Shown in pieces: positions 1 through 62,750 of a stretch of DNA of 64,000 nt. Under the pieces are notes generated by a model. The model ran no database searches and had not been told where the DNA came from. It saw only the letters and a list, made by a program, of their open reading frames with translations. The position numbers were made by a program, and so were the translations under genes. The stretch spans positions 90,184-154,183 of the forward strand of contig JADFYE010000002.1 of the NCBI GenBank assembly GCA_015233195.1, in the 5' to 3' direction. How positions within the stretch are numbered: the stretch's first letter is position 1; each line of letters starts with the position of its first letter. This DNA comes from Candidatus Omnitrophota bacterium (GTDB lineage: Bacteria; Omnitrophota; Gorgyraeia; Zapsychrales; Zapsychraceae).

Positions 1-1719
1 AGTAATATGTTCAGCTCCTGAAGCAGTAAACATTTCAATATTACTGGCGTACTCTTCCAATCCTTCTTCGCGTAATTTCTTTAAAATTGGCTTAGCTACT
101 CTTTCAGCAATTGTTTCTCTAACAAAAGGTACTGCCTGTGTTGTTTCAATGGTTTTACCTTCTCCCGCAAGCTCTGTTTTTATTGATTCTTTTACATCAT
201 AACCTGCTTGTTTACTGAGCAAATCCCAATCCCACTCACTCATCTTAGGCGCAAACCTTGATTCTATATATCGTTTATACGCACTTCCTGTCATTAGAAT
301 AAACCGCACTTTTAAATCTCGATTTTTCTTCATCAAACGAAAAGCCCGAACTATTTGTTCTAAATTTTCATCCAAGATAGGAAAGACTTGATCCTGAGTT
401 GCTCCAGGCATTAAAGTTCTATTCATATCCAAAACAAATGTCACCTGTTTAACGGGTTGCTCCAAATCCATTTGAGGTGGAATTTGCATATCTATCTGTT
501 TTTCCTGCCCATTAATAACAGCATGAGCTGAATATCTACTGCCTCTAATAATTGTTGATCGTAAAAACCTTCTAAAATCTTCCTTAGTTCTAATAAGCAT
601 TGCATTATCTGTTTTCAAAATCACTTCTACAGAGCGTTGCTCTCCAGTTGGTACAATTTTCGCCGCCTCTGCTTTTTTGATAATCATCGCGCTATCTGTA
701 AATCCTCCGGAAAAATACTTCCGAGGTATAATTTGTTTGGTTTGCGGATTGTATTCTTCTTTGATTACGTTATAAACTCCAGATTTAAAAGCTTTCATGT
801 ATTGATCGTAAATTTTCTGAGGCGATAGATCGGAAGTCGAGGGCAAAAGGTTATTGACTTTATTTTTTCCAACATAAACTTTATTTAAAATGCTGTTTTG
901 TACGACGTCCTTATACCATTTAGCAAGGATAAGCGAATAGAACATTTGACGTAAAGGCGCAAAATTCTTGCCGGTGTTAACTTCTTTTTCGATCTCAGGT
1001 ACAATCATGTTACGGATTATTTGAGTAGAAATATCTTTTTTTTGATAGTCATTCTCCGTCATTACTTTTAATTTAGCCTCAGTAATATAGACGGTGTTTT
1101 CGTGTTCATAAATTGTGGCAGATTCAGGCATGATCCAAACTTTATTAAACGTATCAAGAGGAATATCAGTTGTGCCAAATTCTTTTTGTGCTCGGGCGTA
1201 AATCCGATCCCACAATTCACGTCCAGCTTCGCCTTCCGGACGCATTAATGTCGCAGTTAATTGCTTTAAAATATAATCTTGTGCTAATAAATCTTGACCT
1301 AATTCGATTTTTCCTAAATCTTTTGGAATAATACGGTCTGGTTCATTTGGTGAGAGGTTTACCCATAAATCTTTTTGCGGAACAGTCATTGCAGCTAAAA
1401 AATAATTGATTAGTTTTTTAGATTCCGAGCGCAGCGAAGCCTCTGCGCTTTGATTTGCCTTTTGCAAATCAGCAGAGGTTAATTCATTCCCAGTATCCAA
1501 AATAAACTCGAATTTAAATGGATTGTCAGGATTAACTGTTACGCCTTTAAGTAAAGTCGGAACAAATGCTGGACTCATACCAACCATTGCCCCAGGGGCA
1601 GGAAGCCCTAGCACATCTGCTCTAGCTGTAGACGCTGGCATTAAACACTGCAACCCAAAAATCACAGCAATGACCATGCAAACAAATTTTTTCAGAATAA
1701 AAAATCTTGAACTAAACAT
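1..1719 (-). CDS. Large secreted modular protein, paralog A (3' end cut by window edge): family N-terminal module plus HAD-like region
   Basis: Absent from the ORF track because it runs off the edge. My reverse translation from the ATG at 1719 gives MFSSRFFILKKFVCMVIAVIFGLQCLMPASTARA (signal peptide). It continues with NPFKFEFILDTG, LINYFLAAMTVPQKDLWVNLSP, GQDLLAQDYILKQL and PRKYFSGG. These are collinear with the N-termini of the 35517..39590 and 59194..62727 proteins. The frame stays open for 573 codons to base 1. Confidence 0.8.
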   Translation of the reverse strand, partial: MFSSRFFILKKFVCMVIAVIFGLQCLMPASTARADVLGLPAPGAMVGMSPAFVPTLLKGVTVNPDNPFKFEFILDTGNELTSADLQKANQSAEASLRSESKKLINYFLAAMTVPQKDLWVNLSPNEPDRIIPKDLGKIELGQDLLAQDYILKQLTATLMRPEGEAGRELWDRIYARAQKEFGTTDIPLDTFNKVWIMPESATIYEHENTVYITEAKLKVMTENDYQKKDISTQIIRNMIVPEIEKEVNTGKNFAPLRQMFYSLILAKWYKDVVQNSILNKVYVGKNKVNNLLPSTSDLSPQKIYDQYMKAFKSGVYNVIKEEYNPQTKQIIPRKYFSGGFTDSAMIIKKAEAAKIVPTGEQRSVEVILKTDNAMLIRTKEDFRRFLRSTIIRGSRYSAHAVINGQEKQIDMQIPPQMDLEQPVKQVTFVLDMNRTLMPGATQDQVFPILDENLEQIVRAFRLMKKNRDLKVRFILMTGSAYKRYIESRFAPKMSEWDWDLLSKQAGYDVKESIKTELAGEGKTIETTQAVPFVRETIAERVAKPILKKLREEGLEEYASNIEMFTASGAEHIT

Positions 1720-1800
1720 ATTAACTGCCTTAAATATAAATATTAGTAATTTTGTGAAAGTATAATATACAAATATACTGTTGGCAAGGCGACGTAAAAG

Positions 1801-2194: not shown

Positions 2195-4123
2195 TTAACT
2201 CCTAAGCTGCTTTTCGGAGTCAACCACGTCACGGTTGATAATATGCGCCAAATCTTTTACTTTTTTCCTAAACTCTTCAGTAACTGGACATTCAGCCATT
2301 TGCCGTAAAACTTGAATTATCATTCGGAAATATCTAACTACTTCGCCTTCATCGGCACTGGCTTGCTGACTGGCTTCACCAAAATCTTTTCCTCTTACCC
2401 AAGCATCAATCGCGTTTGTAAGATGAAAATACGATAACTTTGTCCGATCTTGTAGACCAGTAGAGCGTTCCATACGATTTATATGTTTAACTACCTCAAA
2501 AGTTTTATCCTGTATGCTTAAAATACGATGGTTCAAATGCGGTTTAGTCATGCCTTTACGCGGCTCATAAATTATAGCGCCGATAAGAATCGCCAATTCC
2601 GGCAAAGTCAATTTATCCAAATACCCCGCCTCAAACAATTCAGATAAAATTAATTCATATCCATAAATCTGCGACGCGAAATCACCTTTCTCAGTTAACC
2701 CTCTTCTATCTATATAACGTAGTTCTTTTAAAATATCAACCTTAGCCCGCATTGCATAAACCGCGCGCTTACGATTATTCTTACTCTCTTGATAAAAATG
2801 AAATGAGTCCGGATAAATATCATATAACCGTTCTCCATGCACCCGGTACAAATTCAAAATCGTGGCATAAGAAGCGTTGAATTGCGAATTAACTTTTTCC
2901 GGTCTGCCATAAACCACTCTTTGCAATTCTGCTGCAGAAATGTAATGTGGATTTACCCGACAAAAAACAAACCCTTCCACGTCTATAGAACGCCGTCCAG
3001 CTCGTCCTGCCATTTGATAAAAATCCCGCGTACGCAAAATTTCAAAACCTTTACGTCCATAATATTTACTTAGCTCGTCGAATATAACTGTGCGCGCCGG
3101 CATATTGATCCCTAAAGCAAAAGTCTCAGTCGTAAAAATAATACTCAAGAGCCGCTGAGTAAAAATCTGCTCTACTACTTCTTTTAGCGTAGGCAGCATT
3201 CCGGCATGATGATACGCAACACCTCGACCAACCAGAGAACGCAATTTTTCCGCACTGGGTTCACCGACCAGATCAAAACGTTTACATAACTTGTCAAACT
3301 CCTCTAAAATTTTAATTTTCTTTTCCTGGTCGAGAAAATCAAAAGTCATCATTTCTTCAGCCAATAATTCCGCCTGCTTACGACTGAACACAAAATAAAT
3401 ACACGGCAACCGATTCGCATCTTTAAGCTCTTGAACTAAAGTTGTAAGTCGGTTGGGATGTAATTTTACAGCATGCGGCACTCTTTGCGTAGGCGAACAA
3501 TGCCCTCCTGGATATTGATATCCATATTTTGCCAGTTTTTCCCAATCATCATAAATCTTGCTTTGGCACTGAAACAAAACTTTCAAAGGAACTGGTCGCC
3601 TATCCTCTTTAACAATCATTATCGGCTGACGATGTATTTGCTCTAGCCAATGTTTAAGCTCGTCTATATTAGGGATAGTTGCAGATAAACCCAACAGCCG
3701 CATATGCTCCGGCATAAATATCAAAGATTCTTCCCAAACTGTTCCCCGTTCGCTATCGTCGATGTAGTGGATCTCATCAAAAATAATCCAACCGTAACTG
3801 CTCAAATCCATATTAGGATCAAGGATCTTGTTACGGAATATTTCAGTAGTCATGATCAAGACCGGCGCTGATGAATTTATCGTCACATCACCAGTCAATA
3901 TACCTATCATTTCAGGATTAGTGGCTTGGAAATCACGGAATTTCTGGTTGGATAAAGCTTTGATAGGCGCAGTATAAATTACTTTCTGGCCACGTTTCAA
4001 TGCCTCTTGAATTACGTATTCAGCAATCGCAGTCTTACCCGCACCCGTCGGAGCAGAAACAATAACAGAGTGTCCCTGGTCTATATATTGAATGGCTTTT
4101 AATTGAAATTCATCATATATCAT
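2195..4123 (-). CDS. Ski2/HelY-like DEAD/DEAH-box superfamily-2 helicase
   Basis: Walker A is SAPTGAGKT, motif II is FDEIHYIDD, motif III is LSATIPN and motif VI is QMAGRAGRR. A long C-terminal helical extension is typical of Ski2-like helicases. Confidence 0.9.
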   Translation of the reverse strand: MIYDEFQLKAIQYIDQGHSVIVSAPTGAGKTAIAEYVIQEALKRGQKVIYTAPIKALSNQKFRDFQATNPEMIGILTGDVTINSSAPVLIMTTEIFRNKILDPNMDLSSYGWIIFDEIHYIDDSERGTVWEESLIFMPEHMRLLGLSATIPNIDELKHWLEQIHRQPIMIVKEDRRPVPLKVLFQCQSKIYDDWEKLAKYGYQYPGGHCSPTQRVPHAVKLHPNRLTTLVQELKDANRLPCIYFVFSRKQAELLAEEMMTFDFLDQEKKIKILEEFDKLCKRFDLVGEPSAEKLRSLVGRGVAYHHAGMLPTLKEVVEQIFTQRLLSIIFTTETFALGINMPARTVIFDELSKYYGRKGFEILRTRDFYQMAGRAGRRSIDVEGFVFCRVNPHYISAAELQRVVYGRPEKVNSQFNASYATILNLYRVHGERLYDIYPDSFHFYQESKNNRKRAVYAMRAKVDILKELRYIDRRGLTEKGDFASQIYGYELILSELFEAGYLDKLTLPELAILIGAIIYEPRKGMTKPHLNHRILSIQDKTFEVVKHINRMERSTGLQDRTKLSYFHLTNAIDAWVRGKDFGEASQQASADEGEVVRYFRMIIQVLRQMAECPVTEEFRKKVKDLAHIINRDVVDSEKQLRS

Positions 4124-5707: not shown

Positions 5708-6184
5708 TTAATGCCCCTGACCATGAAGCATTTTTATTGCGTGTTCTAACAGATCAATTATTGAAGATAAAGACTCAACCGCCCCAGCAGGGCTGCCAGG
5801 AAGGTTTATTATAAGAGAAGAACCACGTATTCCGCATATAGAACGAGATAAGTAAGCTCTTTTGGTTTTATCAGCTCCTAAACTGCGCATTGCTTCAGCT
5901 AAACCCGAAACTTCTTTATCAACAACTTCTTTAGTAACCTCAGGCGTAAAATCCCGCGGAGAAAGACCTGTTCCTCCATTGGTCAAGACCACATCACAAG
6001 CCAATTCATCACAAAAATAAATCAAACGATCGCGTATCTGCAAAGGATCATCTGGAATTATTTCGTATGCCTTAACTTGAAAAGGCTGATCTATTAAAAA
6101 TTCTTTAAGTCGTTTCCCTGTAACATCTTCTAAATTCCCCTTGCTTCTCGTATCACTAATCGTAAGAATAGCTATAGAATACAT
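5708..6184 (-). CDS. MogA/MoaB-type molybdenum cofactor biosynthesis protein
   Basis: 158 aa with the MoCF-biosynthesis signature VLTNGGTGLSPRD. It is the last gene of the Moco operon. Confidence 0.85.
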   Translation of the reverse strand: MYSIAILTISDTRSKGNLEDVTGKRLKEFLIDQPFQVKAYEIIPDDPLQIRDRLIYFCDELACDVVLTNGGTGLSPRDFTPEVTKEVVDKEVSGLAEAMRSLGADKTKRAYLSRSICGIRGSSLIINLPGSPAGAVESLSSIIDLLEHAIKMLHGQGH

Positions 6185-6624
6185 ATATTATTCCCTGGTC
6201 TAATAACACCGCCTTTTTCAACAACTGCAAATACCCCATCTGTAGGCATAACGCACATTCCTGCCTGGTCATAAATACGGCATTTATCGTGACATTCTTT
6301 GCCTTTTTGAGTAACTCGTAATATTACTTCCTCCCCCAGCCTTAAACACGTTCCTTCACTTAAACTAATCAAATCAATACCCGACACTGTAATATTTTCA
6401 GCAAAATCGCCTGGATTAACTTTAACCCCTTTTGCAGTAATTTTAGCAATAGAATCCATTGATAACAAACTTACCTGCCGAATTCCAAGACCAGCATGAC
6501 CGTCGCCCTCAACACCCCAATTTTCTTTCAGAAATATTTCCGGATGATTTATTTTCTTTTCACCTTTTTTTACCGAAGTAGAAACAGCCTCAACTTTTCC
6601 GCACATAATTACCGCTTTTCCCAC
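6172..6624 (-). CDS. MOSC-domain protein
   Basis: 150 aa of beta-barrel-like sequence (QVSLLSMDSI..., GDFAENITVSGIDL) lying between moaC and the mog-type gene. This is a typical position for a standalone MOSC protein. The true start may be the internal MCGKV. Confidence 0.65.
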   Translation of the reverse strand: MGKAVIMCGKVEAVSTSVKKGEKKINHPEIFLKENWGVEGDGHAGLGIRQVSLLSMDSIAKITAKGVKVNPGDFAENITVSGIDLISLSEGTCLRLGEEVILRVTQKGKECHDKCRIYDQAGMCVMPTDGVFAVVEKGGVIRPGNNICIL

Positions 6625-7021
6625 CTGATTTACACATTACTTTCACATCACCTATAACCATATCTTTATCAAACGCTTTACACATATCATAAATAGTCAA
6701 AGCACTGACTGATACTGCAGTTAACGCCTCCATCTCAAAACCGGTTTTTGCATGACCACGAATAACAGCACTGATAACAATTTGGTTTTTACCAAACTTA
6801 AATTCTATTTGAGCAAACTCAATAGCAATGGGATGACATAAAGGCAATAAATTCGGCGTTTGTTTAGCTGCCAATATTCCAGCCACCCGCGCAGTTTCCA
6901 AAACATCACCTTTGGGAATTTTTTTATCTTTAATCAGCTTAATAACACCAGGAGAAATATTTATCAATCCCTGAGCTACAGCTTCACGTTTAGTAACTAT
7001 TTTATCCGATATTTCTATCAT
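6590..7021 (-). CDS. moaC: Cyclic pyranopterin monophosphate synthase MoaC
   Basis: Conserved MoaC blocks are KGDVLETARVAGILAAKQTPNLLPLCHP and TGFEMEALTAVSVSALTIYDMCKA. Confidence 0.9.
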   Translation of the reverse strand: MIEISDKIVTKREAVAQGLINISPGVIKLIKDKKIPKGDVLETARVAGILAAKQTPNLLPLCHPIAIEFAQIEFKFGKNQIVISAVIRGHAKTGFEMEALTAVSVSALTIYDMCKAFDKDMVIGDVKVMCKSGGKSGNYVRKS

Positions 7022-7028
7022 ATTTTAA

Positions 7029-7967
7029 TTAACCACCAATTTGACTCATAAATATCTGACCTGACGGGAAACATTTATAATCAACACTATTCTTTACACA
7101 AATGCGTTCCTGTATACGCAATGCCAGCTCCTCGTCATTCATCTCTTGTAACAAGGGCTTCAAAGCCAAAGCATTCTCTTCATATAAACAAATTTTAAAT
7201 TTACCAGTAGGCGATATTCTCAACCTCGAACAATCCACGCAATTTTCCGAATGCGTATGAATAAAGCCTATCTGCTGTCCATTACCCAACGTAAAATATT
7301 TTGCCGGACCTAAAGATCTGAACTCAGACGGAAACAAACCATATTTAGCTTCACACAATTTTTTAATATCCTCTATTGGTATAAACAATCGTTCATCCCA
7401 AAGCGGAGTTATATGCATAAATTCAATGAACCTGCCAATCAACCCTCGACCATTAAAAAAATTAACCAAATCACAAACCTCATCATCATTCTGACCAGCC
7501 ATTATAACGCTGTTTACTTTAATATTATTAAAACCTTCGGCTTTCGCTTTATCAATCCCGGAAATAACTTTAATAAGATTGTCAGATCCAGTAAATTTTT
7601 TAAATTTTTGAGCATTTAAAGTATCTAAACTGACATTAACTCCGTCTAAACCTGCGATTTTTAACACCCGAGCTTTTTGCTCCAACAACACCGCATTTGT
7701 AGTCAAATGCACCTGATCTATACCCTGGATATTTTTAAACGCTTTAATCAATTCACCAATATCTTCTCTTAATAAAGGTTCTCCCCCAGTAAAACGGACG
7801 CTGCTAACGCCTAAACCTGCAAAAATTTTTCCCAACCTAAGCACCTGCTCAAAAGACAATAATTCCTCGTCGCTAAATAAATCCAAACCGCAGCATGGCA
7901 TACAATATGTACATCTTAAATTGCAGCGATCTGTAACGGATATTCTTAGATAATTGTAATTAGACAT
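7029..7967 (-). CDS. moaA: GTP 3',8-cyclase MoaA (radical SAM)
   Basis: It has the CNLRCTYCMP CxxxCxxC motif, the GGEPLLR motif and a C-terminal cysteine cluster (CVDCSRLRISPTGKFKICL). Confidence 0.9.
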   Translation of the reverse strand: MSNYNYLRISVTDRCNLRCTYCMPCCGLDLFSDEELLSFEQVLRLGKIFAGLGVSSVRFTGGEPLLREDIGELIKAFKNIQGIDQVHLTTNAVLLEQKARVLKIAGLDGVNVSLDTLNAQKFKKFTGSDNLIKVISGIDKAKAEGFNNIKVNSVIMAGQNDDEVCDLVNFFNGRGLIGRFIEFMHITPLWDERLFIPIEDIKKLCEAKYGLFPSEFRSLGPAKYFTLGNGQQIGFIHTHSENCVDCSRLRISPTGKFKICLYEENALALKPLLQEMNDEELALRIQERICVKNSVDYKCFPSGQIFMSQIGG

Positions 7968-9141
7968 ATTTTATTTTAATTTTTGTGCCGGCTTTAATAA
8001 ATTCTTGCTCTTCATCTAAAATTATTAAACTATTGGACTCAACACATGAACGCAGCACTCCTGAGCTTTGGTTATCATAAGGCATAGAATAAAAAACACC
8101 GTCTCGCCATTCAGTTTTAGCCCGGACAAAATATTTTAAACCTTTATCTTTAACAAAATCTTTTTCTAAAACCGCTTCCACTATCAACGGCGAATATTCC
8201 GCACCCTGCATTTTATACAGTACGGGTTTTACAAAATTTTCAAAAGTCACTGCAACTGATACTGGATTTCCCGGCAACCCGAATATTAAAACGTCATTGA
8301 TCTTACCAAATAAAACCGGCTTTCCTGGACGCTGTGCTACCTTATGAAATAAAATAGTACCTGACAATTCTTCCAAAGCTATATGTACCAAATCATATTT
8401 TCCGGCTGATACACCTCCGGATAAAAGTATCACATCCGAAGATAACCCCCGGCTTATGACCGTTTTAATCTCCTCGACTTCGTCTCGGACTATACCTAAT
8501 CTTACTACCTGACCGCCGCACATATCGACCATACCAGATAAAATATAATAATTGGCGTCAAAAATCGTCCCCTCCGATAAAATCTCATCTATATTTATTA
8601 TCTCATTGCCAGTTGATACAATCGCGACTTGTGGCTGATAACTGACCGCGACCTCAGTGCGTCCTACCCGTGCCAACATACCTAAAATCTCAGGAGTAAT
8701 CTTTTTGCCTTTACGCAACACAACCGTATTCTGCTTAACTTCCTCACCCTGACATCTGATATTTTCACCTTTTATCGAAGCTTTTAAAATCTCAACCTGC
8801 GCGACAGATATCAGTTTAGTGTGTTCAACCATTACCACACTATCCGCGCCATCCGGTATAATTCCACCAGTCATTATATTAACCGCTTCTCCGGAAGAAA
8901 TAGACCGAACAAATTTTTCGCCGGCTTTACTTTCTCCTACAACATTAAATATTTTTGATTTATCCTCGCTATTAACTGCGTAACCATCCATGGAGGAAAT
9001 ATCACAGGCAGGAATATCAAAATCAGCTGAAATATCAGCTGACAAAATCCTTCCTAAAGATAATTCAATAGGAATAGTATCAGACGGCAATTCCTTCACA
9101 TTATCAAAAACTATCTTTAATGCTTCATCGACTTTTATCAT
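7960..9141 (-). CDS. moeA: Molybdopterin molybdotransferase MoeA
   Basis: The MoeA N-terminal region includes SSMDGYAV. The MoCF domain includes ILLSGGVSAGKYD and FGLPGNPVS. It overlaps moaA by 8 nt. Confidence 0.9.
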   Translation of the reverse strand: MIKVDEALKIVFDNVKELPSDTIPIELSLGRILSADISADFDIPACDISSMDGYAVNSEDKSKIFNVVGESKAGEKFVRSISSGEAVNIMTGGIIPDGADSVVMVEHTKLISVAQVEILKASIKGENIRCQGEEVKQNTVVLRKGKKITPEILGMLARVGRTEVAVSYQPQVAIVSTGNEIINIDEILSEGTIFDANYYILSGMVDMCGGQVVRLGIVRDEVEEIKTVISRGLSSDVILLSGGVSAGKYDLVHIALEELSGTILFHKVAQRPGKPVLFGKINDVLIFGLPGNPVSVAVTFENFVKPVLYKMQGAEYSPLIVEAVLEKDFVKDKGLKYFVRAKTEWRDGVFYSMPYDNQSSGVLRSCVESNSLIILDEEQEFIKAGTKIKIKYV

Positions 9142-10130
9142 TAGAAAAATTGATAACCATTAGATTTACAAATTGAACAAACCACCCCCGCCTTATCTTT
9201 TTTACTCAAAATAACCCGACGGGCTTCTAAATATTTTTCTCCATTCCAAACCTCGTCAAAAGACTGCTTAACTAAATTACCATAATTATATTTCGCGCAA
9301 TCATACAAAGCGCCACATGGTACCACATCTCCGTTCCAATCCACAGTCAAAGTTTTCCAGGGTTTGGGACAAGAACGCTTTATTTGCTCGGGTATGATTT
9401 TATAATTATTATACGCCGGATCGTCAGGTATCCATTTCTTATCCCGTTTTACTGAAGTATTTATATCCTCAAATATTTCTTTTCCACAATTAATCCGCAT
9501 GCCGCTGGCAGAAAACCCAACCCCAATTTCTTTGGCTTTATCCCGAGCAAGACCTACTTCATGCTGATTATGTTTAAAAACCAAATATTTCCATTCCACA
9601 TAAAGTTTATCACTCTTCAACTCTTTTTTCTTTGCTACCAGTTTTCGCATATTAGCAATCACCCGCTCAATATTACCGCCTATCCGATATTGTTCATAAA
9701 CCGGTTGAGTAGCACCGTCGCATGACACATGTATAACATCCAGCCCATAACGCACTATCTGGTCGATCTGCTCGTCAGAAATAATATTAAAATTACTGTC
9801 TAAAACTATCCGTACTTTTGGTTTTTGTTCTTTAACATATTTTACAAACAACCCGATGTCTTTATTTAAAAACGGTTCACCCCAATTAAAAAAATCCAAA
9901 GTTAGAACAAACGGCTTAACCTTATCAAAAATAGTTTGGAAAGTCTGCAAAGACATCATACTCTTAGGAATGTCACGATTCTCAACATCATTAGTCGGAC
10001 ACAAAGGACAGCGCAGATTACATATATTACCCGGCTCAATCGATATTTTTTTAGGCAAATAATGCAGTTTTACCGCGCGTTTCTCCTCAATAACCTTAAA
10101 TAACCCATCTAATATCGGCACATATCCCAT
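9141..10130 (-). CDS. Radical SAM protein with C-terminal SPASM/twitch-like cysteine cluster
   Basis: It has the CNLRCPLCPT CxxxCxxC motif. The C-terminal cysteines are CPKPWKTLTVDWNGDVVPCGALYDC...VCSICK. Its last base overlaps the moeA start. Confidence 0.8.
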   Translation of the reverse strand: MGYVPILDGLFKVIEEKRAVKLHYLPKKISIEPGNICNLRCPLCPTNDVENRDIPKSMMSLQTFQTIFDKVKPFVLTLDFFNWGEPFLNKDIGLFVKYVKEQKPKVRIVLDSNFNIISDEQIDQIVRYGLDVIHVSCDGATQPVYEQYRIGGNIERVIANMRKLVAKKKELKSDKLYVEWKYLVFKHNQHEVGLARDKAKEIGVGFSASGMRINCGKEIFEDINTSVKRDKKWIPDDPAYNNYKIIPEQIKRSCPKPWKTLTVDWNGDVVPCGALYDCAKYNYGNLVKQSFDEVWNGEKYLEARRVILSKKDKAGVVCSICKSNGYQFF

Positions 10131-35516: not shown

Positions 35517-38500
35517 TTACTGTTCAAAAATTTGCAGAAAATTTGTAACTGGCATAATTTGGAGGATTGTAAAAGTAACACCACTCACTTGCGCGGCATC
35601 AATTTCTATTCCATTAAAATTAAATTTAAAATCTTCTCCTCCATTTTTAACCTGCATACTCATCTGCGCAGGGTCTAAGTCAATCCCGCCTGTACTTTGC
35701 TTTTCCTCGTTAAGATACTTTTCGGGTGATTGTAAAATATCGCTTAATTTCTCTATGATTTTCTGTCTTTGACTATCTTTAATAATATTGCGATAAAATA
35801 GGTCATTACGTGAAAGCTCCTCTAATAAAATCCTCAATTCCTGCGGATACGTACGTAAAACATCCATAACCTTTGCCCATATAGCTTGCCTATACTCAGG
35901 AGGAGAAGAAACATTCTTTCCTTCTAAAAAAACAATTGTTTCAAGATTATGTAAAACATAATGTCGTATTTTTTTCTTCATAACCGGCATTTCTTTACCG
36001 CTTAATAAATGGTCCGTATAAACTTCCAGCCGACTAGCCATATTCCAAGGCTGGGCATCATCCATTGCCTTTAGAACACTAGCATTATGCTCATTAAATT
36101 CTACTGGTTTTTCAAAAGCCAATTTATCTTCCCATAAATCCAAACCCATGGCTCTGGTCCTCTGTTCCAACGCTTTGAATGAATCATCTAAGAAACTTAT
36201 TTCTCTCTCAATTAAGAAAGGTTTATGTTGCTTAAATAAAAATGACATCGTCCCGGCTCCTCTGATTTTAGGAGCAAAATCAGAAGATACCAAAAGCTGT
36301 TGAAATAATTCCTGAGGCATATTTTTCCAAAAACTAATAATGATAACTTTTTGATCCTTTTCAATAATCCACGAGTTTTCTCCCAGTACCAGTACGCCGG
36401 GTAACTTATACGGATCAGCCGGGAACCTATTTGAATAACCCCTTTGTCCTGCTCCTAAGTCAAACAGCACTACCGGTCCAGAGACATTAGCATTGATTAA
36501 ATCCTGCACATAATTTTCTAATCCTTTGAGACTATGTAAATACGCAACCGCCCATTTCATGTGTTCAAGACCCTCTCTACGGACACCTAATTTATCCAAC
36601 AACTCTCGTCTCTCCTCTAAAGTGCGTATTGCCTTTACTTGGGCATTTCCATTAACACCAACACCTAATGTCCCTGGCATAAAACCAGTGGCAAAAAAAT
36701 CCTGCTGTAAATCGCCGAATGTCTTTCCAAAATTTAAATTATCAAAATCACTGATATTAATAGTTCTTTCTACAGCGGCTTTGGGTTTCCATAAAGTTGG
36801 CAAATACTTAATTAACACATAATCATTTCTTTGAGCCATACCATCTTCAATAGTAACGAGCTCTTGTGGTTTATTAATGATTGTAGCAGTAAAATTCTCA
36901 TCCTTAACTTTATAAGCCAATATACGAATACCTTGAACCGTCTGAGCTACAAGACTCCCATTAATAGCAGGTTCAATTAACGGCAACCAACGATTTGTGA
37001 TTTTATCCTCTGTAATTAAAAAAATTGGATTAGAAGGATACCTTTCCTTTAACTTTAATAATAATCCCCAAGCAATTACGGTATCCCCACGACCATCCCT
37101 CAGGTAAGGCAGTGAAAAATAAATAGGCATATTCGGATTGCGCACTTGCTCAGATATCTTTTCTTGCCAACCCATTTCCTGTTCCCAAAGGTCTAAAGAT
37201 TCCACCGACCAATCATCACTCACACAGGTCTTCGCAAATGGAACCCAATCCTTTTGAAAATACATAGCCAGCAGATCATAAACTCCGCGCAAATCCCTTA
37301 AATAACATGTAGCCAGAGAATTCTGCACAGAAACAACTATTTGCTGGGCTTCCAAAGACTGCGGTTCCATACCTGCCCATATTTTAAAACTAATCGCCAA
37401 ATGCAAAGCCACCACTTCCATGCGCAAATAGGCATTTATATCTAAAGCCCTAGGTTCAAATAAAGGTAATGCCTGACGCAAAGCTTCTGTATCAACAAGC
37501 CCATCCCTTATCCAACCCATTGCAGCCTGCGCCAGAGCTTTAAACCAGTAACTTTGATAAAACCACCGATCTTGATCTTTTTTCAGAAAATCAAACCGTT
37601 TAGCTAAAATTAAAAATAATTCATTGCGTTTGGAAGGATCCAACTCTTTAAACCATTGCCTAGATGCAACAAACATTTTTTGTTCTTCTCCTGAATTCCC
37701 AAAAAAAGTTGATTGAGTCCATTGCTCCGCAAAATGTTTATAATATTCATCCGGATTATTTAATTGGGCATTGTCTGTCTTTACCGCCCTATATGCTGCC
37801 ATCGCGTCCTCGCCATTGTCAGAATCAAATTTTGACCAAAATTTAAGAACAATTTTTGTTCCTTTTCCTGGAAATGATTCTATATCAAATTGATCTGCTG
37901 TCGCTCTTGCCAATGGTAATCCGACTCCAGTACCGCCAGCCGCAGTTGCCCCTTCCGGCTCTGCTGACAGTCCATGAGGTTCAGATAAATCGCCTCGGAA
38001 TGCCGCCTCAATGTCCTGTATACCTTTGCCATGATCCATGATAAATATTTCTACCCCCATTCGACCAACATCAAAAATGGGGCGGCTTAAAATAACCCCA
38101 TAGTCTGCATAAAAATATGTGTTTAAAATCAATTCAATAATGGCTGATTTAATATTATCTTTCCGGTTGTTAGAGATCAAATGACTTATCGGTCTTAAAA
38201 TACGTGAAGCGACAACAGAAGCTTCAAGTCCACCGACTTCATGCGGCCAATACCCCTTAAATGCAGTTCCTTTGATCAGAGCAACTTGTTCTTCCGAAGG
38301 AGGAGATATCCGTGTATATCGTTTTAATTGTTCCACTAAAGCCAAACTTTTTTCAACATCACCCATTTGAAGATAGGACCATAACTCTTTAATAACGCCA
38401 TCGGAAAACATCGCTCCATCTGCTGACGGATTAGATATACTCCTCATCATATCCATATCACCAACAACCTCTATCAATGGTTTGGATAGTGCAGCCATGT

Positions 38501-39590
38501 CTTTAGGCGCAATCCTCGCTAAATCCAGAAATTCTATTACTGGAGTAATATTTCCAACTACCCCGCCGGAAAAATATTTCCTTGGCAAAAATTGATTTGT
38601 AAGCGGATCTGGTTCTTCTTTTATGTAGTTGTATACGCCTTTTTTAAAAGCTTGGATGTATTGTTGATAAATTTGTTCCGGGTCTCCACTTAAATTTTTT
38701 GTTGATAACAAATTACCGATTTTATTTTGGTTAGAATAAACTTTATTAAAAATACTGTCTTTAATTTTCTTTTTGTACCACGTAGCTAAAATTAATGAAT
38801 AAAATACCTGACGTAATTGCGTAAAATTTTTACCTTCATTAACTTCTTTTTCCAGCGCGGGAATTATGATCTGCTTTAAAATTTCTTGATTGATCCCCTC
38901 ACTTTTTACCTTTAACCTTTCACCTTTTTTCTGTGATGCCGCATAATCTATCTCTGTCATCACCTTCAAATGATTTTCCAATACAAAGGCTGTTCCCCCG
39001 CTTTCATAAACCACCGCCTTCTCGGGAACTATCCAAACTTTATTAAATGTATCTACGGGAATATCTGTCGTTCCATATTTGGCTTGAGCCTGAGCATAAA
39101 CTTTTTGCCAAAATTCTTTGCCTAATTGGCTTTCAGGATAAATTAAACTTGCGGTAATTTGTTTTAACAAATAATCTTGCGCCAATAAATCGCGGCCCAT
39201 TTCAGTTTTACCAAATGCTTGCGGTACAATGCGGTCTTTTTCATAAGGAGAAAGATTGACCCAAAGGTCTTTTTCAGGAATAGTTAAAGAAGCAAGGAAA
39301 TATTTGATCAAACGATTGGCTTCTTGTCTAAATTCTTCTTGTGACATTTCAGCACCGTGATCGCGAAGCGATTTTACGGTGTCACCAGTATCTACAAAAA
39401 AATTAAACTTGAACGGATTTTGCGGGTCTAATTTAATGCCTTTTAGCACTGCAGGATTGAAAGCAGGACTTAGCGATACCATTTGCCCAGGTGCAGGCAG
39501 ACTAACTTCCTGAGCATAAATTGGATTTGACCCCAGAATGCTAGTGCAGACAAAACACAAAAGAATAAATAGAGAAAGTATCTTTTTCAT
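35517..39590 (-). CDS. Large secreted modular protein, paralog B: family N-module, GHKL ATPase-like domain, ~700-aa unknown region and 'GGID' C-terminal tail
   Basis: Signal peptide is MKKILSLFILLCFVCTSILGSNPIYAQ. The N-module is shared with paralogs A and C. The GHKL-type boxes are ELILNTYFYA (N box), MDHGKGI (G1) and GGTGVGLPLA (G2). The C-terminus is GGIDLDPAQMSMQV... Confidence 0.85.
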   Translation of the reverse strand: MKKILSLFILLCFVCTSILGSNPIYAQEVSLPAPGQMVSLSPAFNPAVLKGIKLDPQNPFKFNFFVDTGDTVKSLRDHGAEMSQEEFRQEANRLIKYFLASLTIPEKDLWVNLSPYEKDRIVPQAFGKTEMGRDLLAQDYLLKQITASLIYPESQLGKEFWQKVYAQAQAKYGTTDIPVDTFNKVWIVPEKAVVYESGGTAFVLENHLKVMTEIDYAASQKKGERLKVKSEGINQEILKQIIIPALEKEVNEGKNFTQLRQVFYSLILATWYKKKIKDSIFNKVYSNQNKIGNLLSTKNLSGDPEQIYQQYIQAFKKGVYNYIKEEPDPLTNQFLPRKYFSGGVVGNITPVIEFLDLARIAPKDMAALSKPLIEVVGDMDMMRSISNPSADGAMFSDGVIKELWSYLQMGDVEKSLALVEQLKRYTRISPPSEEQVALIKGTAFKGYWPHEVGGLEASVVASRILRPISHLISNNRKDNIKSAIIELILNTYFYADYGVILSRPIFDVGRMGVEIFIMDHGKGIQDIEAAFRGDLSEPHGLSAEPEGATAAGGTGVGLPLARATADQFDIESFPGKGTKIVLKFWSKFDSDNGEDAMAAYRAVKTDNAQLNNPDEYYKHFAEQWTQSTFFGNSGEEQKMFVASRQWFKELDPSKRNELFLILAKRFDFLKKDQDRWFYQSYWFKALAQAAMGWIRDGLVDTEALRQALPLFEPRALDINAYLRMEVVALHLAISFKIWAGMEPQSLEAQQIVVSVQNSLATCYLRDLRGVYDLLAMYFQKDWVPFAKTCVSDDWSVESLDLWEQEMGWQEKISEQVRNPNMPIYFSLPYLRDGRGDTVIAWGLLLKLKERYPSNPIFLITEDKITNRWLPLIEPAINGSLVAQTVQGIRILAYKVKDENFTATIINKPQELVTIEDGMAQRNDYVLIKYLPTLWKPKAAVERTINISDFDNLNFGKTFGDLQQDFFATGFMPGTLGVGVNGNAQVKAIRTLEERRELLDKLGVRREGLEHMKWAVAYLHSLKGLENYVQDLINANVSGPVVLFDLGAGQRGYSNRFPADPYKLPGVLVLGENSWIIEKDQKVIIISFWKNMPQELFQQLLVSSDFAPKIRGAGTMSFLFKQHKPFLIEREISFLDDSFKALEQRTRAMGLDLWEDKLAFEKPVEFNEHNASVLKAMDDAQPWNMASRLEVYTDHLLSGKEMPVMKKKIRHYVLHNLETIVFLEGKNVSSPPEYRQAIWAKVMDVLRTYPQELRILLEELSRNDLFYRNIIKDSQRQKIIEKLSDILQSPEKYLNEEKQSTGGIDLDPAQMSMQVKNGGEDFKFNFNGIEIDAAQVSGVTFTILQIMPVTNFLQIFEQ

Positions 39591-39617
39591 TAATAAGTAA
39601 AAGATACTATATAAATA

Positions 39618-40395: not shown

Positions 40396-41526
40396 CTATT
40401 TCAATGTATAACTCGTGCTCCGTCCACCTGCGGCGTCTTTTCTGAGAATCCCTTTTTCCATAAGATCAAGAATATCTCTCAACGCCGTGTCTTGGGAGCA
40501 TTTTGTAATCTTTGCCCATTTAGTAGACGTGAGTTTACCCTCAAATCCATCAAACAATTTATTGACCATCATTTTCTGCCGTTCGTTGATCGCCCCGGAT
40601 GAATGCTTTTCCCAAAATTGTGCTTTTTTAAACACACCTGCTAATGTGCTTTCCGTTGATACAAGAGCCCGGTCGAGACAAGTCAAGAACCACTCAAGCC
40701 AAGTCGTAATATCAACGCTGGCACCTTTCTGCGTCTTCTCAAGCACATCATAATAAACACTTCGTTCCTTACGGATCTGGACAGACATGCTGTAAAAACG
40801 TTGCGCACTACCATCGGTCCGCGCCAATTGCATATCCGTGATCGCTCGTGCGATGCGCCCATTCCCATCCTCAAAAGGATGGATTGTTACAAACCATAAA
40901 TGCGCAATCGCCGCCTTTAAAACTGGATCAAAACCCTTCGAATCACTTGTGGTGAGCGAAGTCGAACCATTAAACCATGATAGATAACTCTTCATTTCTT
41001 GATTCAAACGATCTGCGCTAGGAGCTTCAAAATGGACACGTTCCCGCCCAACGGGTCCAGAAACGACTTGCATCGGACCATCTTTATCATCACGCCATAC
41101 ACCAATTTTTATTTTTCGCATTCCACTGCGTCCCCCAGGGAACATCGCGGCATGCCAACCGAATAAGCGGTCTTTTGTGAGTGGTTTTTTAAAATTTTGC
41201 GTAGCGTCAAGCATCATCTCAACCACCCCTTCCACATGACGGTCAGAACCAACAAGTCCAGCAATGTCCATCCCGAGTCTTCGCGCAATAGATGAACGAA
41301 CCTGACCAGGATCAAGCTTCTCACCTTCAATCTCGCTGCTTTTCAACACATCCAACGTAAGCGTCTGCAAGACCGCTTCCATGCGTAATGAAAAGCCTAA
41401 AGATTCCATCCGACCCATGAGTCGCCCTTGACGATTTCGTACTGTTCCAAGCTGCGCCGCGATCTTTTCGTGACTCCATGTAAATTGAGGCCAATTTTTA
41501 AGTTGATATATATATTTCATACTCAT
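40396..41526 (-). CDS. Fic-family protein (AMPylase-type) with N-terminal DUF4172-like region and C-terminal wHTH
   Basis: The canonical Fic motif is HPFEDGNGRIARA. The N-terminal block is LKNWPQFTW.... Confidence 0.9.
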   Translation of the reverse strand: MSMKYIYQLKNWPQFTWSHEKIAAQLGTVRNRQGRLMGRMESLGFSLRMEAVLQTLTLDVLKSSEIEGEKLDPGQVRSSIARRLGMDIAGLVGSDRHVEGVVEMMLDATQNFKKPLTKDRLFGWHAAMFPGGRSGMRKIKIGVWRDDKDGPMQVVSGPVGRERVHFEAPSADRLNQEMKSYLSWFNGSTSLTTSDSKGFDPVLKAAIAHLWFVTIHPFEDGNGRIARAITDMQLARTDGSAQRFYSMSVQIRKERSVYYDVLEKTQKGASVDITTWLEWFLTCLDRALVSTESTLAGVFKKAQFWEKHSSGAINERQKMMVNKLFDGFEGKLTSTKWAKITKCSQDTALRDILDLMEKGILRKDAAGGRSTSYTLK

Positions 41527-62649: not shown

Positions 62650-62750
62650 AATAAAGTCCGGGTAAAGATACACCCGCCCCCTTAATACAATATAAGTATA
62701 AGACATATTAGGTAAGAAAAACGTCAAATTGGGATGAGATAAGAAAACGT

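What the first reader, a model, noticed from the sequence alone, without database searches (positions are those of the whole stretch)
1..1719. Unannotated edge gene is a third family member with a HAD-like payload
The ORF track shows only two short plus-strand ORFs here (637..828 and 1523..1765). The minus strand, however, is open for 573 codons from the ATG at 1719 to base 1. It encodes a signal peptide and the full family N-module.

After PRKYFSGGFTDSAM and a second TDNAML linker comes VTFVLDMNRTLMPGA...VRFILMTGS. This resembles HAD-superfamily motifs I and II, with Asn replacing the second Asp of DxDxT. The C-terminus lies outside the window, so the presence of the GGID tail cannot be assessed.
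Basis: seen in the sequence. Interest (0 to 1): 0.55.

Follow-up and report, generated by a model that had tools for sequence, protein, structure and literature searches.

The report
Exported multi-enzyme protein with degenerate HAD domain
The window edge cuts through an intact 1389-residue exported protein of an uncultured Omnitrophota bacterium, one of a large uncharacterised family that carries swappable enzyme domains; here the first is a real but probably inactive HAD-type phosphatase fold.

Summary
The minus strand from 1719 to 1 is open for 573 codons, while the other five frames have 22-54 stops. These 573 residues are the exact N-terminus of a database protein of 1389 aa (MBF0483331.1, named "aldo/keto reductase", Omnitrophica MAG). 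The gene is therefore intact and already annotated; it is only cut by the window edge.

Its parts are a Sec signal peptide, the family N-module ending PRKYFSGG, DxAM linkers, a ~420-aa HAD-like unit, an aldo/keto reductase, a weak GNAT match and the GGID tail.

No sequence library recognises the HAD unit. An AlphaFold model of it (pLDDT 87) gives 48 significant PDB matches, all C2-capped HAD phosphatases (ISN1, trehalose-6-P phosphatase, PMM). Six of its eight homologs have the canonical DxDxT motif. This protein and its nearest relative have DxNxT, and also Asn where the other six have the likely motif-III Lys. The unit is therefore probably a ligand-binding or very slow phosphatase.

The N-module and tail match no solved fold. 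The family has more than 1700 members, and every member that carries a source name is from Omnitrophota. How the family works is inferred, not shown; the most likely reading is exported or effector-like carriers of enzyme cassettes.

The parts
1759..1787 (-). Promoter-like site TTGCCA-17-TATACT upstream of the gene (weak evidence)
   Evidence: 10 of 12 matches. The number of such sites in the region is not above the shuffled expectation.
1618..1719 (-). Start codon and Sec-type signal peptide (residues 1-34, MFSSRFFILKKFVCMVIAVIFGLQCLMPASTARA|D)
   Evidence: The hydropathy peak at residues 12-30 is the only TM-like segment apart from the tail. K10/K11 precede the hydrophobic core, and A-x-A sits at residues 32-34. 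An AAGG RBS lies 8 nt upstream. Cleavage is inferred, not tested.
703..1617 (-). Family N-module (residues 35-339), ending PRKYFSGG
   Evidence: It is 51% and 41% identical to the two window paralogs. 1715 database proteins match with E<=1e-5, and every one that carries a source name is from Omnitrophota. There is no Pfam or NCBIfam match. The AF2 model of this module in the minimal member P0109 has pLDDT 85-95 but no PDB or BFVD fold match.
544..702 (-). Linker region with two DxAM motifs (DSAM 342-345 = window 696..685; DNAM 371-374 = window 609..598)
   Evidence: DxAM occurs 150 times in 130 family proteins, against 10.8 +/- 3.0 in shuffles, and it sits at domain boundaries.
1..543 (-). N-terminal 181 residues (393-573) of the ~420-aa HAD-like unit: a beta-hairpin, core strand 1 with motif I, helix, strand 2 with motif II, and the start of the C2 cap. 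The unit continues to about residue 815, outside the window.
   Evidence: AF2 model and Foldseek, alignment A1, exhaustive phmmer.
415..429 (-). HAD motif I, D431-M-N433-R-T435 (nucleophile Asp kept; the Asp+2 general acid/base is replaced by Asn, codon AAT at 423..421)
   Evidence: D431 is invariant in 8 of 8 members. The N433 column is Asp in 6 of 8 and Asn in this protein and P0122. It lies at the C-terminal end of model strand E41-47. It aligns with DLDGT of OtsB.
289..291 (-). HAD motif II Thr (T477 in ILMTGS), directly after core strand 2
   Evidence: The column is Ser or Thr in 8 of 8 members. It aligns with 'LISG' of OtsB.

Best explanation
Window 1..1719(-) is the 5' 41% of an intact gene for a 1389-residue protein of an uncultured Omnitrophota bacterium. 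The protein has a Sec signal peptide, so it is probably exported.

Shown. The domain order is signal peptide (1-34), conserved N-module (35-339), DxAM-marked linkers, a ~420-aa HAD-fold unit with a large C2 cap (about 393-815), an aldo/keto reductase (840-1043 and beyond; the D884/Y889/K915/H957 tetrad is present by motif), a weak GNAT acetyltransferase match (about 1188-1253), and a ~60-aa C-terminal 'GGID' domain (from 1311).

Shown. It belongs to a family of more than 1700 proteins, apparently specific to Omnitrophota. The N-module and the GGID tail are constant in this family. Between them sit interchangeable cassettes of normally cytoplasmic domains: NUDIX, HEAT, ankyrin, NDK, methyltransferase, HATPase, HD, receiver, AKR, GNAT and HAD.

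Inferred. The HAD unit keeps the nucleophile Asp, the motif-II Thr and the motif-IV acidic pair. It has Asn in place of the Asp+2 general acid/base, and Asn where the six canonical homologs have the probable motif-III Lys. It most likely binds a phosphorylated sugar- or nucleotide-like ligand without turning it over efficiently, as a specificity or regulatory module. At most it hydrolyses substrates with good leaving groups.

Inferred, weakest step. The constant N-module and tail serve export, anchoring or delivery. The enzyme cassettes need NADPH and acetyl-CoA, so they would act in a compartment that holds these cofactors. That would be a host or prey cell, in line with the proposed predatory or parasitic lifestyle of Omnitrophota.
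For: Intact gene. The 573-aa translation is an exact prefix of P0121 (1389 aa). P0121 is MBF0483331.1, on a 162,961-bp contig.

Domains. Pfam Aldo_ket_red matches with E=3.9e-17, 62.7 bits against a cut-off of 24. Acetyltransf_1 gives 18.4 bits against 20.7. AKR structures match in the PDB. The tail aligns with 45 other tails.

HAD fold. The AF2 model has pLDDT 87.2. All 48 significant Foldseek PDB hits are HAD enzymes of the IIB kind. Motif I and II align with OtsB. Sub-threshold motif-I hits go to HAD hydrolases 3s6j and 4qjb.

Degenerate active site. In alignment A1, DMNRT and DLNRT appear in P0121 and P0122, against DxD[RKEG][TV] in the other six. 'FSN' in the same two stands against 'F[DS]K' or 'VDK' in the other six, at the start of the helix 19 residues before GD of motif IV. 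In PfISN1, the best structural match, D172N is inactive on IMP, binds IMP with Kd 4.5 uM, and is 91-fold more active on pNPP (PMC7320144).

Still under constraint. The unit is 47% identical to P0122 over 455 aa, and the N-modules of the two proteins are 46% identical.

Cassette behaviour. All 7 other carriers of the unit begin with the family N-module, but the unit sits at different positions and next to different domains. Payload Pfams vary widely among 120 members.

Export. The only hydrophobic segments are the N-terminal signal and the tail.

Lifestyle context. See PMC10066038. Omnitrophota long proteins co-carry MTase, HATPase, GNAT, HAD and HD domains (bioRxiv 10.64898/2026.06.07.730766).
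Against: HAD membership rests on a predicted structure built from only 8 sequences. TM-scores are modest (about 0.40), rmsd is 6-8 A, and identity is about 10%.

Every sequence-profile test was negative or not significant: Pfam, NCBIfam, PDB profiles and cap-deleted constructs. HHalign gave a probability of 7.7%.

The motif-III assignment comes from secondary-structure register and spacing, not from a 3D superposition. An alternative Lys (K709, in 'FTK') lies 5 residues upstream. It is conserved as K or R in 6 of 8 members, including this protein.

Asp+2 -> Asn does not abolish all chemistry, as the pNPP activity of ISN1 D172N shows.

No secretion system, immunity gene or processing protease lies next to any of the three window copies. 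Nothing here shows export beyond the Sec signal. No experiment exists for any family member. The DNA beyond window base 1 could not be fetched, so intactness rests on the deposited protein sequence.
Confidence: 0.6

Rival explanations
1. The HAD unit is a fully functional enzyme with altered chemistry. With Asn at Asp+2, and K709 (FTK) serving as the motif-III Lys, it would act on substrates that need no general acid, such as acyl phosphates, phosphoanhydrides or phosphoramidates. Alternatively it would form a long-lived aspartyl-phosphate, as P-type ATPases and receiver domains do. It would work in series with the fused AKR and GNAT on one metabolite.
For: The nucleophile Asp, the motif-II Thr and the motif-IV GDxxxD are all retained. 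PfISN1 D172N is 91-fold more active on pNPP. The DxN + SN state is shared with P0122 at only 47% identity, so it is a maintained state rather than decay. K709 is present in this protein. The fusion to two intact-looking enzymes suggests a working pathway.
Against: Two catalytic columns change together in exactly the same two proteins, which is the usual signature of lost catalysis. In characterised HAD phosphatases, Asp+2 -> Asn abolishes activity on natural substrates. K709 lies inside a beta strand of the model rather than at the helix start, where type IIB enzymes carry their Lys.
Confidence: 0.27
2. The protein is not delivered to another cell. It is a periplasmic or surface-attached multi-enzyme protein of the producer itself, part of an enzyme-studded envelope or coat. 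It would be a small-scale version of the giant Omnitrophota proteins, with the N-module and GGID tail as envelope anchors.
For: There is a Sec signal but no adjacent specialised secretion genes. The same cassette set (MTase, HATPase, GNAT, HAD, HD) is reported in Omnitrophota giant proteins, most of which are membrane-associated. [quoted passage not shown] Minimal members carry a hydrophobic segment between the N-module and the tail.
Against: AKR and GNAT domains need NAD(P)H and acetyl-CoA, which are not expected in a periplasm or outside the cell (established biochemistry). Receiver, DnaJ, RNAP-alpha-CTD and NDK payloads make little sense outside a cytoplasm.
Confidence: 0.3
3. The resemblance to HAD motifs is coincidental, and the segment is an unrelated alpha/beta domain.
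For: No Pfam, NCBIfam or PDB sequence-profile hit was found. HHalign probability is only 7.7%.
Against: All 48 significant structural matches are HAD enzymes, with probability 1.00 and E down to 5.7e-11. All four motifs occur in the right order, on the right secondary-structure elements, and are conserved across 8 homologs. Six of those homologs have the canonical DxDxT.
Confidence: 0.04
4. The gene is a pseudogene or an assembly chimera that is truncated or frameshifted beyond the window.
For: The DNA beyond base 1 could not be retrieved.
Against: The deposited product is a continuous 1389-aa protein on a 163-kb contig, with recognisable AKR, GNAT and tail domains in the order seen in other members.
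Confidence: 0.03

Closest known systems
IMP-specific 5'-nucleotidase ISN1 (Plasmodium falciparum 6rmo/6rme; yeast 8jb3), a HAD enzyme with a C2 cap
   Same: It is the best structural match (Foldseek E=5.7e-11 over about 385 aligned columns). Both have a HAD Rossmannoid core, a large alpha/beta C2 cap and an N-terminal extension. The natural DxN of this protein equals the engineered D172N substrate-trapping mutant.
   Different: Identity is about 10% and TM-score about 0.40. There is no hit to any ISN1 or HAD sequence model. The cap is larger, with about 210 residues inserted between motif II and motif III. The unit is embedded in an exported multidomain protein rather than being a cytosolic tetrameric enzyme. 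The IMP-stacking Trp and the ATP effector site were not examined.
Trehalose-6-phosphate phosphatase (OtsB/Tps2 C-terminal domain; 5dxl, 6qj6, 5gvx, 1u02), HAD type IIB
   Same: It is the second group of structural matches (E 8e-9 to 2.5e-6 for these entries). HHalign aligns motifs I and II in register with E. coli OtsB. By eye, motif IV 'GDSL[NT]D' resembles OtsB 'GDDLTDE', and 'DKADEI' in homologs resembles 'SKGEAI'.
   Different: There is no Pfam Trehalose_PPase hit. Asp+2 and the probable motif-III Lys are both Asn here. The list of matches also contains the catalytically dead Tps3 C-terminal domain (5hus), which is a precedent for pseudo-phosphatase HAD-IIB domains.
Multi-enzyme long and giant proteins of Omnitrophota (West-Roberts et al. 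2023, bioRxiv 10.1101/2023.11.21.568195; bioRxiv 10.64898/2026.06.07.730766)
   Same: They come from the same phylum and carry the same repertoire of fused cytoplasmic-type domains: HAD, GNAT, HATPase_c, methyltransferase, HD, NUDIX and HEAT. Most have a signal peptide or TM segments. Members of the present family reach 3741 aa (P0126).
   Different: Those papers deal with proteins far longer than this 1389-aa one (the 2026 preprint's catalogue is framed around proteins of 10,000 aa and more). As far as I could find by term searches, they do not describe the ~300-aa N-module ending PRKYFSGG, the GGID tail or the DxAM linkers.
Modular multi-effector toxins (MARTX) and polymorphic toxin systems
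   Same: This is a functional analogy only: constant terminal regions flank variable, shuffled enzymatic cassettes, with many paralogs per genome.
   Different: There are no RTX-type repeats, no cysteine protease domain, no adjacent immunity genes and no T1SS or T6SS genes. The payloads are metabolic or regulatory domains rather than recognised toxins. The variable part is internal, not C-terminal. Nothing was tested experimentally.

Membership tests
HAD superfamily | Rossmannoid alpha/beta core fold shared with solved HAD enzymes | tested here: met
   The AF2 model (pLDDT 87.2) gives 48 of 48 significant Foldseek PDB hits to HAD enzymes, best E=5.7e-11. TM-scores are only about 0.40.
HAD superfamily | Motif I nucleophile Asp at the end of core strand 1 | tested here: met
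   D431 is invariant in 8 of 8 homologs, is the last residue of model strand E41-47, and aligns with the first Asp of OtsB DLDGT.
HAD superfamily | Motif I second Asp (Asp+2, general acid/base) in DxDx[TV] | tested here: not met
   N433 (codon AAT, window 423..421). The column is Asp in 6 of 8 homologs, and Asn here and in P0122.
HAD superfamily | Motif II Ser/Thr at the end of core strand 2 | tested here: met
   T477. The column is Ser or Thr in 8 of 8, directly after strand E86-92, and aligns with OtsB 'LISG'.
HAD superfamily | Motif III Lys | tested here: inconclusive
   The position that fits the type IIB register is the start of the helix 19 residues before GD. It is Lys in the 6 DxD homologs but N714 here and in P0122. 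An alternative, K709, lies in the preceding strand. No 3D superposition was possible. The residue lies outside the window.
HAD superfamily | Motif IV acidic residues (GDxxxD or DD) at the end of core strand 4 | tested here: met
   G732-D733-S-L-N-D737. G and the second D are invariant in 8 of 8, and the first D is present in 7 of 8. The motif sits at the end of strand E344-348. It lies outside the window.
HAD superfamily | Match to a curated HAD sequence model (Pfam or NCBIfam) | tested here: not met
   No HAD family was reported for the full protein, the payload alone or cap-deleted constructs, with E thresholds up to 10. The PDB profile search found only sub-threshold motif-I hits.
HAD type IIB (C2 cap) | An alpha/beta cap inserted after the motif-II strands and before motif III, with no C1 cap in the flap after motif I | tested here: met
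   Only about 18 residues separate motif I from the next helix. About 210 residues of mixed helix and antiparallel strands lie between roughly model residue 103 and 315. The best matches (ISN1, T6PP, PMM) are all C2-capped. The cap was judged from secondary-structure order, not from a superposition.
Omnitrophota N-module / GGID-tail family (uncharacterised, unnamed) | N-terminal signal peptide followed by a ~300-aa module ending [RK][KQ]YFSGG | tested here: met
   120 of 123 members examined carry the end motif.
Omnitrophota N-module / GGID-tail family (uncharacterised, unnamed) | C-terminal ~60-aa domain GGID[LMF]...FDPAM...GFxPVIINIxP...LLGL | tested here: met
   It is present at 1311-1372 of the full-length protein, outside the window.
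Aldo/keto reductase (PF00248) | Pfam score above the gathering threshold, and the catalytic tetrad Asp-Tyr-Lys-His | tested here: met
   62.7 bits against a cut-off of 24. D884 and Y889 (DTAAAYG), K915 (IATKGG) and H957 (FYVHSA) were located by motif. The tetrad assignment is by inspection. The domain lies outside the window.
GNAT acetyltransferase (PF00583) | Pfam score above the gathering threshold, and the acetyl-CoA motif A (Q/R-x-x-G-x-G/A) | tested here: inconclusive
   18.4 bits against a cut-off of 20.7. 'RGKG' is present at 1230-1233.
Polymorphic-toxin or MARTX-like effector systems | A dedicated secretion apparatus, an adjacent immunity gene, or an autoprocessing protease domain | tested here: not met
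   The neighbours of the three window copies are PilZ, a helicase, a pseudouridine synthase, a Fic protein, PurN and an FtsH-like protein. No protease domain was found in P0121. The protein is therefore not filed in this family; only an analogy is drawn.

The most novel reading that the evidence does not exclude
The N-module/GGID-tail family is a previously undescribed, phylum-specific delivery scaffold of predatory or parasitic Omnitrophota. Its members are Sec-exported polyproteins. The novel-fold N-module and the C-terminal GGID domain would mediate attachment or translocation. The DxAM linkers would be processing sites that release cytoplasmic-type enzymes and pseudo-enzymes, such as this DxN HAD unit, inside prey cells. 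This would be a functional analogue of MARTX toxins built from unrelated parts.
Probability: 0.15. Interest if true: 0.8.

Novelty: new variant of a known kind. Interest (0 to 1): 0.45.

Why it matters
For the finding itself, a gene hidden by a window edge turns out to be complete. A motif-level guess (HAD with DxN) is confirmed at fold level. It also defines a HAD subfamily that no current sequence model detects. Two members of that subfamily have lost two catalytic residues together, which is a natural equivalent of the D172N trapping mutant of ISN1.

More broadly, the gene belongs to a family of more than 1700 exported proteins that appears restricted to Omnitrophota. The constant parts of this family match no known fold, and I found no description of them in the literature searched. 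The variable parts are the same cytoplasmic-type cassettes found in the giant proteins of that phylum.

Omnitrophota are uncultured, and their proposed predatory or parasitic biology is inferred from genomes. A tractable 0.5-1.4 kaa version of the giant multi-enzyme proteins offers a way to test where these enzyme arrays go and what they do, starting with the minimal members of about 530 aa.

Tried and rejected
Sequence-family searches on the payload all failed.
- Pfam and NCBIfam on the 573-aa fragment, and Pfam on residues 401-573, gave nothing relevant.
- phmmer against PDB sequences gave nothing.
- The word-indexed homolog search with the payload gave 0 hits. All true relatives are longer than 1000 aa, and that tool listed only proteins shorter than 1000 aa. 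It also missed the protein itself.
- A profile of the 8-member unit against PDB sequences gave no HAD hit.
- The C-core profile gave only a spurious lectin repeat hit.
- The N-core profile gave only sub-threshold HAD motif-I hits.
- Cap-deleted 'core-only' constructs against Pfam at E<=10 gave nothing.
- HHalign of the C-core against OtsB was uninformative.

Extending the DNA beyond base 1 failed. The look-up of encoding contigs has no record of the protein. The GTDB species-representative scan found only two other family members, L001 and L002, and not this MAG.

A first alignment for the N-module plus tail model (A2) was discarded, because MAFFT placed the tail fragments on the N-module. It was rebuilt from full-length natural members.

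The tail-profile search returned only short fragments, so it could not show whether the tail occurs without the N-module.

Literature searches found no description of the family.

The pseudogene reading and the 'motif coincidence' reading were considered and rejected (see rival explanations).
Full report
**1. Observation**

Translating window 1719..1 on the minus strand gives 573 codons without a stop, starting at an ATG. The other five frames of the same stretch have 22-54 stops, as expected for DNA of 36% G+C. The ORF lister shows only 637..828(+) and 1523..1765(+) here, because it omits ORFs that run off the source.

- PRKYFSGG at residues 331-338
- DSAM at 342-345
- DNAM at 371-374
- DMNRT at 431-435 (window 429..415; Asn codon AAT at 423..421)
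- ILMTGS at 474-479

The N-terminus (MFSSRFFILKKFVCMVIAVIFGLQCLMPASTARA|D) has the charge, hydrophobic core and A-x-A pattern of a Sec signal peptide. It is the only TM-like segment apart from the hydrophobic end of the tail. An AAGG ribosome-binding site lies 8 nt upstream, and a TTGCCA-17-TATACT site lies at 1787..1759. Promoter-like sites are not enriched over shuffles in this region.

**2. Third family member**

tblastn of the 573 residues against the window finds two paralogous N-modules. One is at 39614..38505 (51% identity, E=5e-120) and one at 62643..61558 (41%, E=8e-91). They belong to two ORFs:
- 35517..39590(-), 1357 aa, with a weak HATPase_c match
- 59194..62727(-), 1177 aa, with weak HD and CheR-type methyltransferase matches

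Both ORFs end in a GGID tail.

A database search with the 573 residues gave 1715 proteins at E<=1e-5. Every one that carries a source name is Candidatus Omnitrophica or Omnitrophota, except one fragment labelled Pacearchaeota and one from an unclassified bacterial bin of a hydrothermal-vent metagenome. All of them match only the N-module, covering at most 71% of the query. Their precomputed Pfam domains are very diverse: NUDIX, ankyrin, HEAT, NDK, epimerase, DnaJ, receiver, RNAP-alpha CTD, M48 and others.

**3. The rest of the gene**

An exhaustive phmmer of residues 380-573 against 1.84 billion representatives found only 10 proteins. The best, P0121, is 100% identical over the query and 1389 aa long. 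The window translation is its exact prefix. P0121 is GenBank MBF0483331.1, 'MAG: aldo/keto reductase [Candidatus Omnitrophica bacterium]', on a 162,961-bp contig. The paralog at 35517..39590 is MBF0483359.1 (HQL25_01500), on a contig of the same length.

So the gene is neither unannotated in the public record nor a pseudogene. It ends with ...LDSAMESDLGGIDMSAVGFRRVDGTGPKIEFNFDPAMLQEFQSGEFKAIITNIVPLSSVLPLLGLAP..., which is a complete GGID tail. I could not retrieve the DNA beyond base 1, so intactness rests on the deposited protein.

Pfam on the full protein finds two domains:
- Aldo_ket_red at 840-1043 (E=3.9e-17, above the gathering score)
- a sub-threshold GNAT at 1188-1253

AKR structures are the only PDB sequence hits. 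The AKR tetrad residues can be located by motif. Nothing is reported for residues 385-825.

**4. Is the payload a HAD domain?**

The segment is part of a ~420-aa unit (P0121 about 393-815). This unit recurs at 27-47% identity in seven other proteins of 1392-3741 aa. All seven also begin with the family N-module. In the database searched, the unit is therefore a cassette private to this family. It sits at different positions and next to different domains in different members: a receiver in P0122, a methyltransferase in P0125, and a Rossmann domain in P0127.

Alignment A1 shows four motifs:
- Motif I, F-x-x-D-x-[DN]-x-[TV]. The first Asp is invariant. The second position is Asp in six members (DVDRT twice, DMDET, DIDKV, DVDKT, DIDGT) and Asn in P0121 and P0122.
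- Motif II, a hydrophobic run ending in Ser or Thr.
- 'ISLF[DS]K'.
- 'GD[ST]xxD'.

AlphaFold2 on A1 gave a confident model (pLDDT 87.2, pTM 0.86). Motif I lies at the end of strand 41-47 and motif II directly after strand 86-92. A ~210-residue alpha/beta insertion follows, and GD lies at the end of strand 344-348.

Foldseek against the PDB gave 48 hits with E<=1e-3, and every one is a HAD enzyme:
- P. falciparum and yeast IMP-specific nucleotidase ISN1 (best E=5.7e-11)
- trehalose-6-phosphate phosphatases
- PfHAD5/PMM
- the Tps3 pseudo-phosphatase domain

Of these, ISN1 is documented as C2-capped in the paper read; that T6PP and PMM are type IIB enzymes is from established knowledge. HHalign of A1 against E. 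coli OtsB aligns motifs I and II in register, but weakly (E=0.0045, probability 7.7%).

**5. State of the active site**

In addition, there is a position at the start of the helix that follows the last cap strand, 19 residues before GD. This is the register of 'SKGEAI...GDDLTDE' in OtsB. At that position the six DxD members have Lys, and P0121 and P0122 have Asn (N714). So two catalytic columns change together in the same two proteins.

This motif-III assignment is an inference from spacing and secondary structure. A second Lys (K709, in 'FTK') lies 5 residues upstream and cannot be excluded without a superposition.

For the closest solved relative, PMC7320144 reports that PfISN1 D172N is inactive on IMP, binds IMP with Kd 4.5 uM, and is 91-fold more active on pNPP. 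The unit is as conserved between P0121 and P0122 (47% over 455 aa) as their N-modules are (46%), so it is under constraint.

The most likely reading is a ligand-binding or very slow phosphatase module. The main rival is an enzyme with altered chemistry on good-leaving-group substrates.

**6. The family scaffold**

Of 123 members examined, 120 have the [RK][KQ]YFSGG end motif at about residue 305-400. 49 have GGI[DA][LMF] within the last 120 residues, and most of the others appear to be fragments from short contigs. The tails align as GGID[LMF]N...G.G[IV].F.FDPAM...GF.PVIINI.P...LLGL.

Natural minimal members (P0109, P0096, P0013; 533-585 aa) consist of the N-module, a partly hydrophobic linker and the tail. 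An AF2 model of P0109 built from 54 natural members has pLDDT 85-95 over most of the N-module and about 85 over the tail, with a disordered linker. It has no significant match in the PDB (best E=1.3) or in BFVD (best E=1.1). Pfam and NCBIfam have no model for either part.

The motif D-x-A-M occurs 150 times in 130 family proteins, against 10.8 +/- 3.0 in shuffles. It lies right after PRKYFSGG, before the tail and between payload domains, and it occurs ten times in P0122.

The three window copies are dispersed. Their neighbours are housekeeping or otherwise unrelated genes (PilZ, a Ski2-like helicase, the Moco operon, a pseudouridine synthase, a Fic protein, PurN), not secretion genes.

**7. 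Mechanism**

Shown: the domain composition, the signal peptide features, the cassette variability and the apparent restriction to one phylum.

Inferred: export by Sec. The constant N-module and tail would act as an export, anchoring or delivery scaffold. The cassettes would be exchanged between DxAM-marked boundaries.

The payloads depend on NAD(P)H, acetyl-CoA or ATP, or are regulatory domains, so they would be useless in a periplasm. I therefore favour action inside another cell. This fits the predatory or parasitic lifestyle proposed for Omnitrophota (PMC10066038). It also fits the same cassette set reported in their giant proteins (bioRxiv 10.1101/2023.11.21.568195; bioRxiv 10.64898/2026.06.07.730766).

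This step is weak. The alternative, an envelope-anchored enzyme array of the producer itself, is nearly as likely.

**8. Comparison, novelty and scores**

The HAD unit works like, and folds like, a type IIB HAD phosphatase (ISN1 or T6PP). It fails the canonical motif-I test at Asp+2, probably fails motif III, and matches no curated HAD model. I file it as a divergent, probably degenerate HAD-IIB-like domain, not as a member of ISN1 or T6PP.

The whole protein resembles the multi-enzyme long proteins of Omnitrophota. It belongs to a defined sub-kind (N-module, DxAM linkers, GGID tail) that I did not find described.

Novelty: new variant of a known kind. Interest: 0.45. The specific finding is a solid but incremental annotation. 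The family behind it is the more interesting object.

Noticed in passing
window 685..696 and 598..609 (DSAM, DNAM); family-wide in P0001-P0131: The four-residue motif D-x-A-M is about 14-fold enriched in the family (150 observed against 10.8 +/- 3.0 in shuffles). It marks domain boundaries: after PRKYFSGG, between payload domains and before the GGID tail. It occurs ten times in P0122. It could be a linker signature, a recombination joint or a processing site.
   Followed up: partly
window 703..1617 (-) and the homologous modules at 38505..39614 and 61558..62643: The ~300-aa N-module shared by more than 1700 Omnitrophota proteins is modelled confidently (pLDDT 85-95 in P0109). It has no significant fold match in the PDB or BFVD, and no Pfam or NCBIfam model. 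The same holds for the ~60-aa GGID tail.
   Followed up: partly
P0109, P0096, P0013 (database proteins): Natural minimal family members of 533-585 aa have no enzyme payload. They consist only of the N-module, a partly hydrophobic linker (a strong TM-like segment in P0013 at 448-466) and the GGID tail. They would be useful for testing what the scaffold itself does.
   Followed up: partly
window 59194..62727 (-): The listed TTG start of this paralog adds about 26 residues before a normal-looking signal peptide (MNMRKICAFIVSICF...). The product of the TTG start is not in the protein collection, so the real start is probably the ATG near 62649.
   Followed up: partly
window 55466..58045 (+): An 859-aa FtsH-like protein with two complete AAA modules (GPPGCGKTY appears twice) followed by an HESGHA zinc-protease motif. 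Canonical FtsH has one AAA module.
   Followed up: no
window 2195..4123 (-): A Ski2-like DEAD/DEAH helicase with a C-terminal DSHCT (NUC185) domain (E=5e-25). This domain is best known from eukaryotic and archaeal Ski2/Mtr4 and from actinobacterial HelY.
   Followed up: no
window 5708..10130 (-): A molybdenum-cofactor biosynthesis cluster (MogA-like, MOSC, MoaC, MoaA, MoeA) followed by a radical SAM/SPASM protein. This is ordinary chromosomal context for the family member at the window edge.
   Followed up: no
window 40396..41526 (-): A Fic-family protein with the HPFEDGNGR motif lies upstream of the second family member, separated from it by a pseudouridine-synthase-like gene.
   Followed up: no
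whole window: GC skew is negative in almost every 2-kb bin (cumulative -6.4). In the regions listed (1-12 kb, 36-41 kb, 58-64 kb) most long ORFs are on the minus strand. This is consistent with the window lying on a single replichore.
   Followed up: no
tool behaviour: The word-indexed homolog search listed only proteins shorter than 1000 aa. It missed the query's own full-length protein and all carriers of the HAD-like unit. The exhaustive representative search found them.
   Followed up: yes
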